A stretch of 64,000 nucleotides of DNA. Origin: Propionibacteriales bacterium (lineage in GTDB: Bacteria; Actinomycetota; Actinomycetes; Propionibacteriales; Nocardioidaceae). A program made the position numbers and the translations under genes. Each line of letters starts with the position of its first letter. The first letter of the stretch is position 1. Of the stretch, positions 32,106-64,000 are shown piece after piece. Under the pieces are notes generated by a model, which worked only from the letters and a program-made list of their open reading frames with translations, did no database searches and was not told where the DNA came from. The stretch lies in contig JBBQKY010000001.1 in NCBI GenBank assembly GCA_038327385.1, forward strand, positions 4,218 through 68,217, given 5' to 3'.

Positions 32106-32140
32106 GTGGTGGGTCAGCGGAGACTCTCGGATGGTCGGGG

Positions 32141-32169
32141 TTGACGCGGGGGCGGCGAGCGGGTTTACT
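32141..32169 (+). promoter_or_regulatory. Candidate sigma70-type promoter of the SOS operon
   Basis: TTGACG (32141-32146), a 17-nt spacer, then TTTACT (32164-32169). The LexA box begins 12 nt downstream of the -10 element. Confidence 0.5.
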
Positions 32170-32180
32170 GAGGGAACGGT

Positions 32181-32196
32181 TCGAACATGCGTTCGA
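32181..32196 (+). promoter_or_regulatory. LexA operator (SOS box)
   Basis: TCGAACATGCGTTCGA is a perfect match to the actinobacterial/mycobacterial LexA consensus TCGAAC-N4-GTTCGA. It sits upstream of the DnaE2-like/DinB operon. Confidence 0.8.
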
Positions 32197-32280: not shown

Positions 32281-32319
32281 TGCTGCTCCTGCTCCTGCTC
32301 CTGCTCTAGCTCCGGCTGC
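32281..32319 (+). repeat. Hexanucleotide microsatellite (TGCTCC)3 with degenerate flanks
   Basis: The sequence is tgc tgc tcc tgc tcc tgc tcc tgc tct agc tcc ggc tgc. It is in frame with the downstream small ORF and would encode CCSCSCSCSSSGC if ATG 32248 were used. Confidence 0.8.
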
Positions 32320-32403: not shown

Positions 32404-32691
32404 ATGCGCCGGTACGACGACCCGATCGACGTCCGCCGCGGGCTGGTCGCGGGTCTCGACGCACCCGAGCAGTTCGTCTGGCGCGGCAGGCTGTGGGTAG
32501 TCCGGGAGGTCATCGCGCACTGGGTCAGGACGGGCGCCTGGTGGGACCAGGATGACGCGCGTGACCTGCTGGCCGAGCGCGAGGTGTGGCGGGTCGAGGC
32601 AGGGCGGGGACAGGCGGTGTCCGCCGGCGTCTTCGACCTCGCCTTCGACTGGGGCGACGGGCGCTGGCTGCTCGTCTGCAGCAGCGACTGA
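32404..32691 (+). CDS. Small conserved protein preceding the DnaE2-like gene (DUF6504-like; name from memory, unverified)
   Basis: 95 aa from ATG 32404, with GGAAGG 8 nt upstream. The sequence is MRRYDDPIDVRRG...FVWRGRLWVVREVIAHW...EVWRVEAGRG...GVFDLAFDWGDGRWLLV. In-frame ATG 32248 would give 147 aa. Confidence 0.6.
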   Translation: MRRYDDPIDVRRGLVAGLDAPEQFVWRGRLWVVREVIAHWVRTGAWWDQDDARDLLAEREVWRVEAGRGQAVSAGVFDLAFDWGDGRWLLVCSSD

Positions 32692-32708
32692 TGGGCAGCG
32701 ACTGATGG
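32681..32708 (+). repeat. Perfect 14-bp tandem duplication at the junction of the small gene and the DnaE2-like gene
   Basis: GCAGCGACTGATGG occurs at 32681-32694 and again at 32695-32708. Each copy carries a TGATG stop/start overlap. Confidence 0.9.
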
Positions 32709-35700
32709 ACCCGTTCGTCCACCTGCACGTCGCGTCCGGCTACTCGCTCAAGTACGGCGCCTCGCACCCTCGCCAGCTGGCGGAGCGGGCCGCCGAGGCG
32801 GAGATGGACGCCCTCGCCCTCACCGACCGCGACGGGGTCTACGGAGCAGTCCGGTTCGCGAAGGCCTGCTCGGCGAACGGCATCCGGCCGATCCTCGGCG
32901 TCGACCTGGCGATCGAGCCCTCCGGGCTTGTTCCAGAGCCCTCCGGGCTCGTCCCGACCATCCGAGACTTCCCACCCGACCATCCGAGACTTACCGCCCG
33001 ACCATCCGGGCTTGTCCCAGCCACCGTGAGCGCGCGGACGCCGGTCCGCGGCGGGCAATACCTCGACCACGACCGGGCGCATCCCCGGGTCACGCTGCTG
33101 GCCGGCAGCCGGGCGGGCTGGGCGGCGCTGTGTCGGCTGACCTCCGCCACCCATCTGCGCGGGGAGCGCAGCGTGCCGGTGACCACTCGCGGCCTCGTCG
33201 CCGACCACCTGTCCGGGCTGGACTCCGGCACCGACCTGCTCGTTCTCCTCGGGCCCTCCTCCGAGCTGGGATGGGCGGCGGCGCTGCGCCGTGACGACAT
33301 GGCGCGCGCGGTGCTGCGCGACTGGTACGACGTGACCGAACGCACCAACCTCGTCGTCGAGGTGGTCTCGCACCGGCGGTCCGGCGTCGGGCCCGGGTCG
33401 AGCCCGCACGCCGCGAGGATGGCCGGCGTCGCCGCCTCGGCCGGTTGCCAGCTCGTCCTGACCAACGAGGTCCGCTACGTCGACCGCGCCGACGCTCCGG
33501 TGGTCGACGTACTCGATGCGGCCCGGCGGCTGGTCCCGCTCGACCTGCGCCACGTCGACCGAGCCAACGCCGAGGGGTTCTTGAAGACCGGCAAGGAGAT
33601 GGCCGACATCGCCGACGAGATCTGCCGGTTCGCGGGTCTCGGCGACAAGGAGGCGGAGCGGCTGCTCGCCGGCACCCGCGCGGTCGCCGACCGGTGCGCG
33701 CTCGACCCGCGCGCCGACCTCGGGATCGGCGAGGTCCACTTCCCCGAGCTCGCCGTCGTAGAGGGGGGAGCGGGCACGTCCGGCGACGCCGTGCTGCGGG
33801 CGCGCTGCGAGGCGGGGATCGGCAGGCGGTACGGCTCGGGTGCCGACCTGCCGGCAGTTCGCGACCGGCTCGACGACGAGCTGACGGTGATCGGCGGACT
33901 CGGGTACGCGACGTACTTCCTCACCGTCGCCGACGTCGTGGACCTGGTCCGCGACCGGGGGATCCGGACGGCGGCTCGCGGCTCGGGGGCGGGCAGCCTG
34001 GTCAACTACCTGCTCGGCGTGTCCGGCGTCGACCCGTTGCGCTACGGCCTACTGATGGAGCGGTTCCTGTCGCCGCTGCGCCAGGCGCTGCCGGACATCG
34101 ACGTCGACGTGGAGTCCGCGCGCCGTCTCGAGATCTACGACGCGATCCTCGAGCGGTACGGCGGGGAGCGCTGCGCCTGCGTCTCGATGATGGACACCTA
34201 CCGGGTGCGGCACGCGATCCGCGACGTCGGAGCGGCTCTTGGCCTGCCGCCGGGCGAGATCGACCAGCTAGCCAAGGCGTTCCCGCACATCCGGGCTCGC
34301 GACGCCCGCGCCGCGATGCGGGAGCTCCCGGAGCTGCGCAGCGTCAACCTCGGGGAGGGTCGCCTGGACCTGCTGTTCACGCTGGTGGAGAAGCTCGACG
34401 GGCTGCCCCGCCACATCGCGATGCACCCGTGCGGCGTGCTGCTCTCCGACGCCACGCTGCTCGACCGCACCCCGGTCGAGGCGAGCTTCCTCGGTTACCC
34501 GATGAGCCAGTTCGACAAGGAGGACGTCGAGGACCTGGGGCTGCTGAAGCTCGACGTGCTGGGCATCCGGATGCAGTCGGCGATGGCACACGCCGTCGCT
34601 GAGGTGGCCCGGGTCGGCGGGCCCGTCATCGACCTCGACGACGAACAGCAGGTGCCGCGCGACGACCCGGCGACGTACGCGCTGATCCAGAGCACGAGGA
34701 CGCTCGGGTGCTTCCAGATCGAGTCGCCGGGGCAGCGCGAGCTGGTCGGCAAGTTCGCGCCGCGCGGGTTCGAGGACATCATCATCGACATCTCGCTGTT
34801 CCGGCCGGGGCCGGTCAAGAGCGACATGATCAACCCGTTCCTGCGGGTGCGGCACGGCTGGTCGCCGGCGGAGTACCTCCATCCCGACCTCGAGCCGGTG
34901 CTCGAGCAGACCTATGGCGTCGTGGTGTTCCACGAGCAGGTCATCGAGATGATCGCCGTCGTCGCCGGGTGCGGCCGCGCCGAGGCCGACGAGGTACGTC
35001 GCGCGCTCGGCGACCGCGAGGCCAAGGAGGACGTCCGGACGTGGTTCTTCCCCCGCGCCCTCGCGGGCGGCTACCCGCTCGCCGTCGTCTCGCGGGTGTG
35101 GGAGGTACTCGAGGCGTTCGCCTCGTTCGGTTTCTGCAAGGCCCACGCCGCGGCCTTCGCGCTGCCCACGTTCCAGTCGGCGTGGCTGAAGGCGCACCAC
35201 CCTGCCGCGTTCCTCGCCGGCGTGCTCACCCACGACCCCGGCATGTACCCCAAGCGGCTGATCCTCGACGACGCCCGCCACTTCGGGATCGCCGTGCTGC
35301 CGCTCGACGTCAACACCTCCGACGACGTCTACCGCGTCGAGCGGCGGGGCGGGCGCTCTCCGTCAGCGGCAGGGGCCGAGGCTGCGTCGGACGGCATCCG
35401 GCTGGCGCTGAACGAGGTCAAGGGCATCAGCGCAGCCGAGGTCGCCAGGATCACCGCCGCCCGGCCGTTCTGCTCGCTGACCGACCTGTGGCAGCGGGCG
35501 CGGGTGTCTCGCCCGGTCGCGGAGCGGCTGGTGCTGGCCGGTGCCCTCGACTCCCTCTACGGCATCGGTTCTGCGAACCAGTCGTTCGGATCTTCAGTGC
35601 CGGTACGACGGCGGGGCACCGTCACCCGCCGTGACCTGCTGCTGCAGGTGGCGGAGCTCGACAGGTGGACCCGCGCCACCGACCGGGCGGTCCGGGCCGC

Positions 35701-36571
35701 GTCGCCACGGTCGCCGAGGTCGGCGCGAAGCAAGTCTGCCGTCCCGCTCTCGCTCGGGCAGGGCAGCGCGGCCGGCTGGGCCGACGGACTGGCGGGGAGT
35801 CGGAGCGGCTTGCCCACAGACCCGCGACTGCTGGCGGCTGCCCAGTCGCAGGGCCCGCTGCCGGTGGACCCGGTCACCGCCGTCCAGCTCACTCTCGACC
35901 TCGACGACGTGCCGGCGCTCGCCGAGCCGTCCGGGCTGCCGGAGATGTCCGGCGCCGAGCGGGTGCGGGCGGAGCTCGAGGTGCTCGGCCTCGACATCAG
36001 CCATCATGCGATGGACTGCTACGCCCCGATGCTCGACGAGCTCGCCGTCACAAGGTCGCGCGACCTGCTGAGGCAGCGCAACCAGTCGGAGGTGCTGGTC
36101 GCCGGGGTCAAGGTGGCCACCCAGACGCCGCCCGTGCGCTCCGGACGACGGGTTGTCTTCCTGACCCTCGACGACGGCACCGGGCCGGTCGACGCCACGT
36201 TCTTCGAGGACGTCCAGGGGCCTTATGCCGCCACGATCTTCCACTCCTGGCTGCTGGTCGTGCGAGGAGTGCTGCGTCGTACCGGGCCGCGGGGAGTCTC
36301 GATGCGCGCCACCGGCTGCTGGGAGCTTCCCGAGCTGTACGCCGTGTGGCAGTCGAACGGGATCGCGGGAGTCCGCGACGCCATCGCCGCGGTGCCTGCC
36401 GGCTTTGCGGACCAGCCAGCCGGGTCTGCAGAGGCACCGCCCAACCGGGTCCTCGTGCATCCCAGTGGCTTCCGGCAGTCGCCGTACGCCGACATCCGAC
36501 CGGCCGGTGTGGACACGAAGACGGCGCCACGCAAGCTGTGGCACTCGAGCCCGGGCAGCGCGGGCGGCTGA
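32705..36571 (+). CDS. dnaE2: DNA polymerase III alpha-subunit homolog of the DnaE2 (error-prone) type, with an atypical PHP domain
   Basis: 1288 aa from ATG 32705. The N-terminus is FVHLHVASGYSLKYGASHPRQLAERAAEAEMDALALTDRDGVYGAVRFAKA, which is DnaE2-like rather than DnaE1-like. The polymerase core includes LLKLDVLGIRM, GCFQIESPGQRE, ISLFRPGP and FGFCKAHAAAFALPTFQSAWLKAHHPAAF. A LexA box lies upstream. Confidence 0.8.
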   Translation: MDPFVHLHVASGYSLKYGASHPRQLAERAAEAEMDALALTDRDGVYGAVRFAKACSANGIRPILGVDLAIEPSGLVPEPSGLVPTIRDFPPDHPRLTARPSGLVPATVSARTPVRGGQYLDHDRAHPRVTLLAGSRAGWAALCRLTSATHLRGERSVPVTTRGLVADHLSGLDSGTDLLVLLGPSSELGWAAALRRDDMARAVLRDWYDVTERTNLVVEVVSHRRSGVGPGSSPHAARMAGVAASAGCQLVLTNEVRYVDRADAPVVDVLDAARRLVPLDLRHVDRANAEGFLKTGKEMADIADEICRFAGLGDKEAERLLAGTRAVADRCALDPRADLGIGEVHFPELAVVEGGAGTSGDAVLRARCEAGIGRRYGSGADLPAVRDRLDDELTVIGGLGYATYFLTVADVVDLVRDRGIRTAARGSGAGSLVNYLLGVSGVDPLRYGLLMERFLSPLRQALPDIDVDVESARRLEIYDAILERYGGERCACVSMMDTYRVRHAIRDVGAALGLPPGEIDQLAKAFPHIRARDARAAMRELPELRSVNLGEGRLDLLFTLVEKLDGLPRHIAMHPCGVLLSDATLLDRTPVEASFLGYPMSQFDKEDVEDLGLLKLDVLGIRMQSAMAHAVAEVARVGGPVIDLDDEQQVPRDDPATYALIQSTRTLGCFQIESPGQRELVGKFAPRGFEDIIIDISLFRPGPVKSDMINPFLRVRHGWSPAEYLHPDLEPVLEQTYGVVVFHEQVIEMIAVVAGCGRAEADEVRRALGDREAKEDVRTWFFPRALAGGYPLAVVSRVWEVLEAFASFGFCKAHAAAFALPTFQSAWLKAHHPAAFLAGVLTHDPGMYPKRLILDDARHFGIAVLPLDVNTSDDVYRVERRGGRSPSAAGAEAASDGIRLALNEVKGISAAEVARITAARPFCSLTDLWQRARVSRPVAERLVLAGALDSLYGIGSANQSFGSSVPVRRRGTVTRRDLLLQVAELDRWTRATDRAVRAASPRSPRSARSKSAVPLSLGQGSAAGWADGLAGSRSGLPTDPRLLAAAQSQGPLPVDPVTAVQLTLDLDDVPALAEPSGLPEMSGAERVRAELEVLGLDISHHAMDCYAPMLDELAVTRSRDLLRQRNQSEVLVAGVKVATQTPPVRSGRRVVFLTLDDGTGPVDATFFEDVQGPYAATIFHSWLLVVRGVLRRTGPRGVSMRATGCWELPELYAVWQSNGIAGVRDAIAAVPAGFADQPAGSAEAPPNRVLVHPSGFRQSPYADIRPAGVDTKTAPRKLWHSSPGSAGG
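32915..33022 (+). repeat. Five degenerate 21/22-nt tandem repeats inside the DnaE2-like coding sequence
   Basis: The units are agccctccgggcttgttccag / agccctccgggctcgtcccg / accatccgagacttcccacccg / accatccgagacttaccgcccg / accatccgggcttgtcccagcc. They are translated as EPSGLVP EPSGLVP TIRDFPP DHPRLTA RPSGLVP. Confidence 0.85.
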
Positions 36572-63210: not shown

Positions 63211-63897
63211 ATGCCTGTGACGCCCGAGGACGTGCAGAAGAAGACGTTCACGCCGGTCCGCCTCCGCGAGGGATACGACATGGGGGAGGTGGACCAGTTC
63301 CTCGACGAGGTCGAAGCGGAGCTGACCAGACTCCACCAGGAGATCGACGGCGGACGCTCGGGTGCCGACCAGCTCGACAATGCAGCCGGCGACGCGGCGG
63401 CGCCGCCCGCCACCGCTGCCGAGCTCGCCGGTGAGCTCCCGCCTCGTTCGGTCCCGGAGGCCTCGACCGCGGCGGCGCGGCTGCTCGAGCTCGCCACCAC
63501 GAGTGCCGACCAGCTCGTCGCGGAGGCGCAGGACAGTGCCACCAAGATCGTGGGGGATGCCCGCACGGACGCCGAGCGGCTCGAGACCGACACGCTGGCG
63601 AGGACCGAGCAGCTCGAGGCGGAAGCCAAGGCACGACTCGAGGCGCTCGACAAGGAGACCGCCGACCGTCGGCAGCAGATGTTGAGCGATCTCGAGCATG
63701 ACAAGGCAGCCTTGTCGCAGGACCTCGAGGACCTGCGTGCGTTCGAGCGCGAGTACCGCACCCGGCTGAAGGCATACTTCGAGGCGCAGCTGCAAACCCT
63801 CGACGGCGTGGCGGACACGCCGGCGCCTCCCCTGACCCCCTCGAGCGACGAGGAGGTCCCGAGCCGGCTCCGCGAGCTCCTCGGCGACGACGCCTGA
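63211..63897 (+). CDS. divIVA: DivIVA / Wag31 polar growth and division protein
   Basis: 228 aa. MPVTPEDVQKKTFTPVRLREGYDMGEVDQFLDEVEAEL is the DivIVA N-terminal lipid-binding domain. A coiled-coil C-terminus follows. Confidence 0.9.
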   Translation: MPVTPEDVQKKTFTPVRLREGYDMGEVDQFLDEVEAELTRLHQEIDGGRSGADQLDNAAGDAAAPPATAAELAGELPPRSVPEASTAAARLLELATTSADQLVAEAQDSATKIVGDARTDAERLETDTLARTEQLEAEAKARLEALDKETADRRQQMLSDLEHDKAALSQDLEDLRAFEREYRTRLKAYFEAQLQTLDGVADTPAPPLTPSSDEEVPSRLRELLGDDA

Positions 63898-64000
63898 CCA
63901 TCCGGCCGTTCCGGTCGACCATCCGGCCGTTCCGGTCGACGATCCGGCCGTTCCGGTGGACGATCCGGCCGTTCCGGTGGACGATCCGGCGGTTCCGGTG
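63896..64000. repeat. 21-bp tandem repeat array, at least 5 copies, truncated by the window end
   Basis: gaccatccggccgttccggtc occurs twice, gacgatccggccgttccggtg twice and gacgatccggcggttccggtg once. The units are contiguous and start on the last two bases of the divIVA TGA stop. Confidence 0.95.

What the first reader, a model, noticed from the sequence alone, without database searches (positions are those of the whole stretch)
32915..33022. DNA-level tandem repeats inside the polymerase gene, with successive copies translated in all three frames
Two 21/20-nt units (agccctccgggcttgttccag, agccctccgggctcgtcccg) are followed by three 22-nt units (accatccgagacttcccacccg, accatccgagacttaccgcccg, accatccgggcttgtcccagcc). 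Because 22 is not a multiple of 3, the same DNA word ACCATCCG(A/G)G is read as TIRDF, then DHPRL, then RPSGL. Three copies (66 nt) restore the frame, so the 1288-codon ORF stays open. This points to a minisatellite or slippage-type expansion tolerated in a surface loop just after the first PHP motifs, not a selected protein repeat. Gaining or losing one 22-nt unit would frameshift an SOS-induced polymerase, a potential on/off contingency switch.
Basis: seen in the sequence. Interest (0 to 1): 0.6.

Follow-up and report, generated by a model that had tools for sequence, protein, structure and literature searches.

The report
Dispersed 22-base repeat inside polymerase gene
The repeats inside this SOS-regulated DNA polymerase gene are a stray copy of a genome-wide family of 22-base non-coding repeats that normally sit just after gene stop codons; the copy is tolerated because it lies in a floppy loop and its total length keeps the reading frame, and nothing so far shows it acts as an on/off switch.

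Summary
Window 32915-33022 holds two 21/20-nt units followed by three 22-nt units, read as TIRDF, DHPRL and RPSGL inside an intact 1288-codon C-family polymerase gene.

The interpretation needs revising. The 22-nt units are not a private slippage product. They match (20/22) the consensus of a dispersed 21/22-nt tandem-repeat family with core ACCATCCG. That family forms about 27 arrays in this genome and hundreds in a relative. It nearly always starts on or just after a stop codon, in sense orientation.

The polymerase copy is the only intragenic one I found. It lies in a loop of variable length (25-72 aa in 84 orthologues) that is predicted to be disordered. Four diverged lineages (dS 0.24-0.31) all carry exactly three units, so it is inherited and kept in frame.

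The two leading 21/20-nt units are a separate duplication of native EPSGLVP-coding sequence.

Sister species carry a different genome-specific 22-nt family in the same loop, with about 1 to 4 units.

No frameshifted allele tied to the array was seen. Population data were unavailable, so the contingency switch is unsupported.

The family fits the described but unexplained class of 20-23-nt bacterial tandem repeats.

The parts
32181..32196 (.). Perfect actinobacterial LexA (SOS) box TCGAACATGCGTTCGA, 12 nt after a TTGACG-N17-TTTACT promoter-like site (32141-32169)
32404..32691 (+). Small DUF6504 gene (95 codons), first gene of the operon
   Evidence: Pfam PF20114, E 5e-18. Start and stop read. 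Relatives have the same 95-aa gene.
32705..36571 (+). C-family (DnaE2-like) DNA polymerase gene, 1288 codons, intact
   Evidence: PHP, DNA_pol3_alpha, finger, HHH_6 and OB domains. The NCBIfam error-prone and DnaE models both score 658 bits, below their cut-offs. Gene-wide dN/dS is 0.17-0.18.
32915..32955 (+). Tandem 21/20-nt duplication of the native sequence that encodes EPSGLVP. It is not a member of the dispersed family.
   Evidence: EPSG(L) is conserved in orthologues of other genera. The duplication is present in G000 and JBBSHL01 and absent in G003 and JBPCOP01.
32956..32999 (+). Two full 22-nt units of the dispersed ACCATCCG family, each 20/22 identical to the genome consensus GACCATCCGAGA[G/C]TTCCCGCCC. 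They are read as (P)TIRDFPP and DHPRLTA.
33000..33022 (+). Third, chimeric unit: family core GACCATCCG fused to a copy of the native tail GGCTTGTCCC. It is read as RPSGLVP.
   Evidence: 14/22 identical to the consensus. Sister lineages have GACCATCCGAGCTCGTCCC or GACGATCCGAGACTTTTCC at the same place.
32119..32140 (-). Solitary unit of the same family (CCCCGACCATCCGAGAGTCTCC on the minus strand), abutting the -35 hexamer of the SOS promoter
63896..64000 (+). Start of a 13-core (12.4-unit) array of a 21-nt variant of the family (GACCATCCGGCCGTTCCGGTC). It begins on the divIVA TGA and runs past the window end.

Best explanation
The three 22-nt units are an intragenic copy of a lineage-specific, genome-wide family of 21/22-nt tandem repeats (core ACCATCCG, C-rich strand in sense). 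In this genome and a few related uncultured Nocardioidaceae, that family normally lies in intergenic DNA and starts on or within a few bases of a gene's stop codon.

One array became established, in the sense orientation, in the DNA that encodes a length-variable, probably disordered loop of the PHP domain of a LexA-box-preceded DnaE2-like polymerase. This happened in the common ancestor of four sampled lineages. Purifying selection on the polymerase has let only frame-preserving states persist (3 x 22 = 66 nt), so each unit is translated in a different frame.

Later local slippage or recombination between the array and the similar native sequence (GAGCCnTCCGGGCT versus GACCATCCGAGACT) produced the extra 21-nt EPSGLVP duplication and the chimeric units.

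Shown: family membership, insertion relative to orthologues, shared ancestry, loop context, intact gene under constraint.
Inferred: the order of events, the slippage or recombination mechanism, and that the peptide itself has no function.
For: - Family membership. The core occurs 25x in the genome against 0 for the reversed control. There are about 27 arrays with periods of 21 or 22 nt, and polymerase units 1 and 2 match the consensus at 20/22. Of the period-22 TRF arrays in the genome, 13 of 16 belong to the family.
- Normal location of the family. In G000, 13 arrays start as TGAccatccg at the end of long GC3-rich ORFs. In relatives, 53 of 72 arrays start within 40 nt of such a stop. The array 5' end abuts a same-strand gene 3' end versus an opposite-strand 5' end at 12:1 and 31:3.
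- Restricted distribution. Only 10 of 201 genomes of the family have a match, with counts of 4 or more in seven of them. Only 3 other MAGs among 185,579 species representatives have arrays.
- Insertion and inheritance. Orthologues of other genera and three genus members lack the array. G000, JBBSHL01, G003 (JBBSIF01) and JBPCOP01 have exactly three units at the same nucleotide position. They form one clade.
- Selection. dS is 0.24-0.31 and gene-wide dN/dS is 0.17-0.18, against 0.33-0.61 in the loop.
- Foreign composition. GC3 is 0.67 in the repeat segment and 0.92 in the gene.
- Tolerant loop. Query residues 72-116 replace an ~11-residue loop of Taq Pol III alpha. The loop is 25-72 aa (median 37.5) in 84 orthologues. 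AlphaFold2 gives pLDDT below 50 and coil for residues 81-120.
- Uniqueness. No other true intragenic array was found in G000 or in 53 loci of relatives.
Against: - The way arrays reach new sites is unknown. No transposase, RAYT or recurrent neighbouring gene was found. Target-site duplications are inconsistent.
- The same loop carries arrays of a second, different 22-nt family in sister species. Passive tolerance alone does not predict this. It hints at a site preference or a function.
- Residues 71-80 of the loop have moderate pLDDT (77), so not all of the repeat-encoded peptide is predicted to be disordered.
- All genomes are MAGs, so arrays are probably under-assembled.
Confidence: 0.78

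Rival explanations
1. Contingency (phase-variation) locus. Slippage gains or loses single 22-nt units at high frequency, which frameshifts the SOS polymerase and creates ON and OFF subpopulations.
For: The unit length is not a multiple of 3, and units 1 and 2 are 91% identical. Intergenic arrays of the family change copy number and turn over between species. The sister-family array in the same loop varies from about 1 to 4 units between species. The region shows other small tandem duplications.
Against: Four lineages separated by dS 0.24-0.31 all have three units and full-length ORFs. Only two near-identical units exist, far fewer than in typical phase-variable tracts (my own knowledge of Neisseria and Haemophilus contingency loci). 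The only gene copy with frameshifts (G002) has them scattered elsewhere in a long-read MAG of uncertain quality. No read-level data could be obtained.
Confidence: 0.06
2. Functional intragenic element. The arrays are recognised by a trans-acting factor, or act as C-rich Rho-loading or termination modules. On this reading the copy inside the polymerase gene is retained to attenuate expression of a mutagenic polymerase, and it tracks each genome's own repeat family.
For: The same loop holds family-A arrays in one clade and arrays of a different, genome-specific 22-nt family in sister species. It is the only intragenic site found. Both arrays begin right after the same native CGACC, and both unit types start with GACC. 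Arrays are C-rich on the sense strand (C 44%, G 21.5%) and sit exactly where ribosomes leave the mRNA. Opposed arrays fold into long hairpins (-73.6 kcal/mol, z -5.7).
Against: There is no experimental or transcript evidence. The intragenic array alone has no significant structure (z -1.6). The third unit has drifted to 14/22 and the loop dN/dS is relaxed, as expected for neutral DNA. G004 and G001 do without any array. No partner protein was found.
Confidence: 0.1
3. Selected protein repeat or functional peptide insertion, for example a partner-binding motif in the PHP domain.
For: The peptide is retained in four lineages.
Against: The DNA units are conserved while their translations differ because of the three frames. 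Conservation is therefore at the nucleotide level. The loop is hypervariable in length and sequence across 84 orthologues. GC3 is non-coding-like and structure confidence is low.
Confidence: 0.03
4. Assembly artefact: a dispersed repeat was mis-joined into the gene in a short-read MAG.
For: The family is dispersed and breaks assemblies. Arrays lie at several contig ends, and the G005 assembly breaks in this very loop.
Against: The same array sits at the same position in four independent assemblies from different projects, with lineage-specific substitutions and an uninterrupted ORF.
Confidence: 0.02

Closest known systems
Bacterial tandem repeats of constant size (20-23 nt) and variable sequence (Subirana and Messeguer; PMC8161180)
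   Same: Both have units of 21-22 nt (two helical turns), many non-coding arrays per genome, and species-specific sequence families of the same length. The class is reported in many groups including Actinobacteria, and its function is unknown. Here two genomes of one genus carry different 22-nt families.
   Different: The passages of that paper returned by my term search (stop codon, coding regions and similar terms; I did not read the whole paper) say nothing about stop-codon anchoring, sense orientation, or a translated in-frame intragenic copy. These Nocardioidaceae families are not named there.
MIRU-VNTR minisatellites of Mycobacterium tuberculosis (PMC3635867)
   Same: Both are dispersed minisatellites of an actinobacterium. 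MIRUs are mostly intergenic, with a few copies inside coding regions, and their copy number varies.
   Different: MIRU units are longer (tens of bp; my own knowledge: 40-100 bp) and lie inside operons, where they overlap stop and start codons. Here the units are 21/22 nt and the arrays sit mainly at 3' ends facing convergent genes. There is no sequence similarity.
Rickettsia palindromic elements (RPEs) and other MITEs inserted in frame in ORFs (review PMC10969869)
   Same: In both cases selfish-looking non-coding repeats are inserted in frame into protein-coding genes at positions compatible with protein fold and function.
   Different: RPEs are ~150-bp palindromic single elements with dozens of intragenic copies that encode a conserved peptide. 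Here the insert is a tandem array of non-palindromic 22-nt units (z -1.6), there is only one intragenic site, and the peptide differs unit by unit because of the frame.
REP/BIME elements and REPINs with RAYT transposases
   Same: Both are abundant extragenic repeats just after stop codons, often as inverted pairs between convergent genes that form hairpins.
   Different: The unit is not a palindrome. No Y1/RAYT gene was found in any of 12 genomes tested, while the control genomes scored.
Phase-variable simple-sequence contingency loci (Neisseria, Haemophilus; my own knowledge)
   Same: Both are intragenic repeats whose unit is not a multiple of three, so a change in unit number would shift the frame.
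   Different: Contingency loci have many perfect copies of 1-7-nt units and polymorphic ON and OFF alleles among close strains. Here there are 2-3 imperfect 22-nt units and an invariant count in four lineages.

Membership tests
Dispersed 20-23-nt constant-size tandem repeats of bacteria (Subirana and Messeguer class) | Unit length of 20-23 nt, shared by many arrays in one genome | tested here: met
   Core-to-core periods are 21 (36 intervals) and 22 (32 intervals) across 27 arrays. TRF agrees.
Dispersed 20-23-nt constant-size tandem repeats of bacteria (Subirana and Messeguer class) | Same size but different, species-specific sequence families | tested here: met
   The ACCATCCG family is in G000, G001 and G003. 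The GACCGGAGTGGCATCTCAA family is in G002 (229 hits) and G006 (16 hits) and absent from the others. Reversed controls gave 0.
Dispersed 20-23-nt constant-size tandem repeats of bacteria (Subirana and Messeguer class) | Non-coding location; does not encode amino-acid repeats | tested here: met
   This holds for all arrays except the polymerase copy. That copy is the exception under study.
Phase-variable contingency locus | Copy-number polymorphism with frameshifted (OFF) alleles among close relatives | tested here: not met
   There are three units and intact ORFs in four lineages.
Phase-variable contingency locus | Long, near-perfect repeat tract that promotes slippage | tested here: not met
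   There are 2.5 copies. Identities to unit 1 are 91% and 73%.
REP/REPIN-RAYT system | Palindromic unit and an associated Y1 (RAYT) transposase gene | tested here: not met
   PF01797 is absent from 12 genomes, with positive controls scoring. The single array has no significant fold.
MITE / RPE-type in-frame insertion | Terminal inverted repeats and a target-site duplication | tested here: inconclusive
   The intragenic array has no TIR. Some intergenic sites have opposed arrays. A possible 4-7-nt duplication appears at two sites and is absent at others.
Error-prone DnaE2 (ImuC) polymerase | C-family architecture (PHP, palm/NTPase, fingers, HhH, OB) | tested here: met
   All five Pfam domains are present. 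PDIDVD and LDVLG motifs are present in the translation (read by eye).
Error-prone DnaE2 (ImuC) polymerase | Score above the NCBIfam 'error-prone DNA polymerase' cut-off | tested here: not met
   NF004225 scores 658.5 bits against a cut-off of 939. The DnaE model scores equally at 658 against 1002. Public annotations of relatives are split between both names.
Error-prone DnaE2 (ImuC) polymerase | SOS (LexA) control and an imuA'/imuB partnership | tested here: inconclusive
   A perfect LexA box lies upstream of the operon. The neighbours are DUF6504, a methyltransferase and a DinB-type polymerase, not imuA'/imuB. No genome-wide search for imuB was done.

The most novel reading that the evidence does not exclude
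The loop array may be ancestral to the genus, with its sequence replaced in step with each genome's own 22-nt family: the ACCATCCG type in one clade and the GACCGGAGTGGCATC type in sister species. Alternatively, the site is actively re-targeted, since both arrays begin after the same native CGACC. Either way, some machinery would recognise, homogenise or re-insert all arrays, even a translated one. The copy in the SOS polymerase could then act as a conditional attenuator, for example Rho loading on the C-rich repeat when translation is poor. That would give the unexplained 20-23-nt bacterial repeat class a testable function.
Probability: 0.12. Interest if true: 0.75.

Novelty: new variant of a known kind. 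Interest (0 to 1): 0.42.

Why it matters
Bacterial tandem repeats of about 21-22 nt have been described as abundant and enigmatic, with no known function or spreading mechanism. This locus is a natural experiment on them. One array sits inside an essential-looking, SOS-controlled polymerase gene, where every unit is translated in a different frame. It has been kept through speciation, and sister species carry a different family at the same spot. That shows how selfish or regulatory non-coding repeats can build protein loops. It also gives a defined place to measure array slippage, turnover and any trans-acting recognition. For the polymerase itself the practical message is modest: the segment looks like tolerated filler and not a demonstrated switch.

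Tried and rejected
- Metagenome contigs for near-identical alleles: the best hit was 68% identical and none had the array.
- Rfam on four array loci: no relevant match.
- RAYT/Y1 transposase as mobiliser: absent from 12 genomes.
- Consistent target-site duplications: CGCCTGA at divIVA and CTGA at one other site, but nothing at most sites.
- Other intragenic arrays: spanning ORFs at C19, C57, C141 and C153 have non-coding GC3 patterns. Two-core hits inside genes are chance matches.
- RNA structure of the intragenic array: not significant.
- Literature search for this specific family: nothing found. The general class was found.
- Using the G002 allele as evidence of a frameshifted state: rejected, because the gene has scattered frameshifts elsewhere in a long-read MAG.
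Full report
**1. Observation.**
Window 32915-33022 reads GAGCCCTCCGGGCTTGTTCCA / GAGCCCTCCGGGCTCGTCCC / GACCATCCGAGACTTCCCACCC / GACCATCCGAGACTTACCGCCC / GACCATCCGGGCTTGTCCCAGCC. TRF reports period 22, 2.5 copies, 94% matches, score 98. The repeat finder gives three 22-nt copies at 100/91/73% identity and the 20-nt pair at 90%. The ORF with ATG at 32705 runs to 36571 (1288 codons). It translates the segment as EPSGLVP-EPSGLVP-TIRDFPP-DHPRLTA-RPSGLVP, so the word ACCATCCG(A/G)G is read in all three frames. The description is correct.

**2. The gene.**
- The product has PHP, DNA_pol3_alpha, finger, HHH_6 and OB domains.
- It scores equally (658 bits) against the NCBIfam error-prone and DnaE models, and both scores are below the cut-offs.
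- Relatives are annotated under both names, always in Nocardioidaceae or Propionibacteriales MAGs.
- A perfect LexA box, TCGAACATGCGTTCGA, lies at 32181-32196 behind a promoter-like site.
- The operon is DUF6504 (32404-32691), the polymerase, a methyltransferase and a DinB-type polymerase.
- 'SOS-induced' is therefore a reasonable inference.
- The gene is under purifying selection, with dN/dS 0.17-0.18 against three relatives.

**3. The 22-nt units belong to a dispersed family.**
- GACCATCCGRGMYTT (at most 1 mismatch) occurs 25 times in the 2.57-Mb MAG, against 0 for the reversed control.
- I count 27 arrays with an exact ACCATCCG core. Periods are 21 (36 intervals) or 22 (32 intervals).
- The 22-nt consensus is GACCATCCGAGA[G/C]TTCCCGCCC, with 44% C and 21.5% G. 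Polymerase units 1 and 2 match it at 20/22 and unit 3 at 14/22.
- Of the 16 period-22 tandem repeats that TRF finds in the genome, 13 belong to this family.
- One array of a 21-nt variant, with 13 cores (12.4 units), starts on the divIVA stop at window 63896.

**4. Where the family normally sits.**
- In G000, 13 arrays begin as TGAccatccg, with the TGA closing a long ORF of GC3 0.84-0.94. Others follow TAA, TAG or TGA within 10 nt.
- In 53 loci of relatives, 53 of 72 arrays with at least 3 cores start within 40 nt of such a stop.
- The array's 5' end abuts a same-strand gene 3' end far more often than an opposite-strand 5' end (12:1 and 31:3). The next gene downstream is mostly convergent.
- Opposed arrays between convergent genes fold into long hairpins (-73.6 kcal/mol, z -5.7).
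- At divIVA the stop codon is native and conserved. G004, G005, G006 and G001 have an empty site. G003 has a different subfamily array 20 nt after the stop. So arrays turn over at a given gene end.
- Some arrays sit at orthologous gene ends in G000 and relatives.

**5. Distribution.**
- Among 201 genomes of the family, only 10 have a match. Counts of 4 or more occur in G000 (24), G003 (63), G001 (336), G005 (4), G002 (4), G108 (16, another genus) and G133 (4). All reversed controls gave 0.
- Among 185,579 species representatives, only three other MAGs have arrays with at least 3 cores: CAWFYK01, JBBSIF01 and JBBPZV01.
- There is no Rfam match and no RAYT gene. No recurrent neighbouring gene was found.

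**6. The polymerase copy is an inherited insertion in a tolerant loop.**
- The segment between GVDLA-(I/V)EP and PRVTLLA is 25-72 aa long (median 37.5) and non-homologous in 84 orthologues.
- It corresponds to an ~11-residue loop of Taq Pol III alpha.
- AlphaFold2 on the N-terminal 420 aa with 21 sequences gives pLDDT below 50 and coil for residues 81-120. Residues 71-80 score 77.
- Orthologues of other genera, G004 and G001 have no array.
- Four independent assemblies carry exactly three units at the same nucleotide position, right after a native CGACC. They are G000, JBBSHL01, G003 (JBBSIF01) and JBPCOP01.
- These four form one clade (SH-aLRT 85) and differ by dS 0.24-0.31.
- GC3 of the repeat segment is 0.67, against 0.92 for the gene. 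The loop dN/dS is 0.33-0.61.
- No other true intragenic array was found.

**7. The first two units are something else.**
- EPSG(L) is native and widely conserved.
- G000 and JBBSHL01 share an in-frame 21-nt duplication of it. G003 and JBPCOP01 lack it.
- In JBBSHL01 the second copy reads GAGACCATCCGGGCTCGTCCC, which is the family core plus the native tail. In G000 the third array unit is likewise core plus native tail.
- The native GAGCCnTCCGGGCT resembles GACCATCCGAGACT. I infer slippage or recombination between the two.

**8. Sister species.**
- The same loop in G002 holds 4.1 units (98% matches) of a different 22-nt repeat, GACCGGAGTGGCATCTCAACCC.
- A JGI contig (P0009) has 4 units, G006 has about 2 degenerate units, and P0010 has about 1.
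- These units too are read in three frames: PDRSGIST, RPEWHLN and PTGVASQ.
- That repeat is itself dispersed in G002 (229 hits) and G006 (16 hits). It is absent from G000, G001, G003, G004, G005, G108 and G133. It forms intergenic 22-nt arrays.
- So either the loop has been colonised at least twice, or an old array has been replaced by each genome's family. Three units is not the only frame-preserving state.
- The G002 gene has scattered frameshifts, but it comes from a long-read MAG and I do not trust them.
- The G005 assembly breaks inside this loop.

**9. The switch hypothesis.**
- No ON/OFF polymorphism is seen. The unit count is invariant in four lineages, only two units are near-identical, and the ORFs are intact.
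- Read-level data were unavailable. No near-identical metagenome contigs exist in the collection searched.
- I rate the switch at about 6%.

**10. Comparison with what is known.**
- The family fits the 'constant size (20-23 nt), variable sequence' tandem repeats reported across bacteria, including Actinobacteria, whose function is unknown (PMC8161180).
- It resembles MIRU minisatellites in being dispersed, mostly intergenic and occasionally intragenic (PMC3635867).
- The in-frame insertion recalls Rickettsia palindromic elements (PMC10969869).
- It is not a REP/RAYT system.
- Earlier notes of this scan on other Nocardioidaceae genomes describe the same kind of stop-codon-anchored 21/22-bp arrays. 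One note proposes a nuclease partner, which I did not find here.

**11. Verdict.**
The locus is best read as a fixed, frame-constrained intragenic member of a dispersed 22-nt repeat family in a disordered loop. The recurrence of two different families at the same loop is the one feature that simple tolerance does not explain.

Noticed in passing
window 32681-32708: A perfect 14-nt tandem duplication, GCAGCGACTGATGG x2, duplicates the TGATG stop/start overlap between the DUF6504 gene and the polymerase gene. DUF6504 now stops at the first TGA (32689-32691) and the polymerase starts at the second ATG (32705). Relatives (L104, L195) keep the single overlapping TGATG.
   Followed up: partly
window 32119-32140 (minus strand): A solitary unit of the same repeat family (CCCCGACCATCCGAGAGTCTCC) directly abuts the -35 hexamer of the LexA-controlled promoter. 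A similar solo unit (GCCATCCGAG) lies at the equivalent place in G003 and JBPCOP01.
   Followed up: partly
window 32283-32317: A hexanucleotide repeat, (CTGCTC) x5.8, lies between the LexA box and the DUF6504 start codon, presumably in the 5' leader.
   Followed up: no
window 63896-64000 and beyond (G000:C1:68113-68373): An array of a 21-nt variant (GACCATCCGGCCGTTCCGGTC) with 13 cores (12.4 units) starts on the divIVA TGA. The site is empty in G004, G005, G006 and G001. In G003 it is occupied by a different subfamily plus an inverted array. A 7-nt direct duplication, CGCCTGA, flanks the G000 insert.
   Followed up: yes
L111 (G013 divIVA 3' end): In another genus the 3' end of divIVA, including its TAG stop, is triplicated as a 19/20-nt tandem repeat (CGAAGATGCCGCCTCCTAG). 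This is unrelated in sequence to the ACCATCCG family.
   Followed up: no
polymerase residues ~350-375 in relatives (P0005, P0009, P0011): A second variable segment of the polymerase carries in-frame 15-nt peptide repeats (LDVTG / LDVRG, 2-4 copies) in relatives. G000 has none there (FPELAVVEGGAG).
   Followed up: no
P0005 versus P0006 (G001-like proteins): These two near-identical 1305-aa proteins differ by a ~170-residue internal stretch that is read out of frame in P0006. This is either a compensated double frameshift or an assembly error.
   Followed up: no
G000 C186:3197-3320, C122:247-443, C19:20458-20660: Forward and inverted arrays fill the whole spacer between convergent genes, and both stop codons (TGA...TCA) lie at the outer ends. 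The C186 pair folds at -73.6 kcal/mol (z -5.7).
   Followed up: partly
G005:C20 end and G005:C13 start: The assembly of a sister species breaks exactly inside the polymerase loop. The contig ends carry poly-G/poly-C junk, which suggests a repeat there that the assembler could not resolve.
   Followed up: partly
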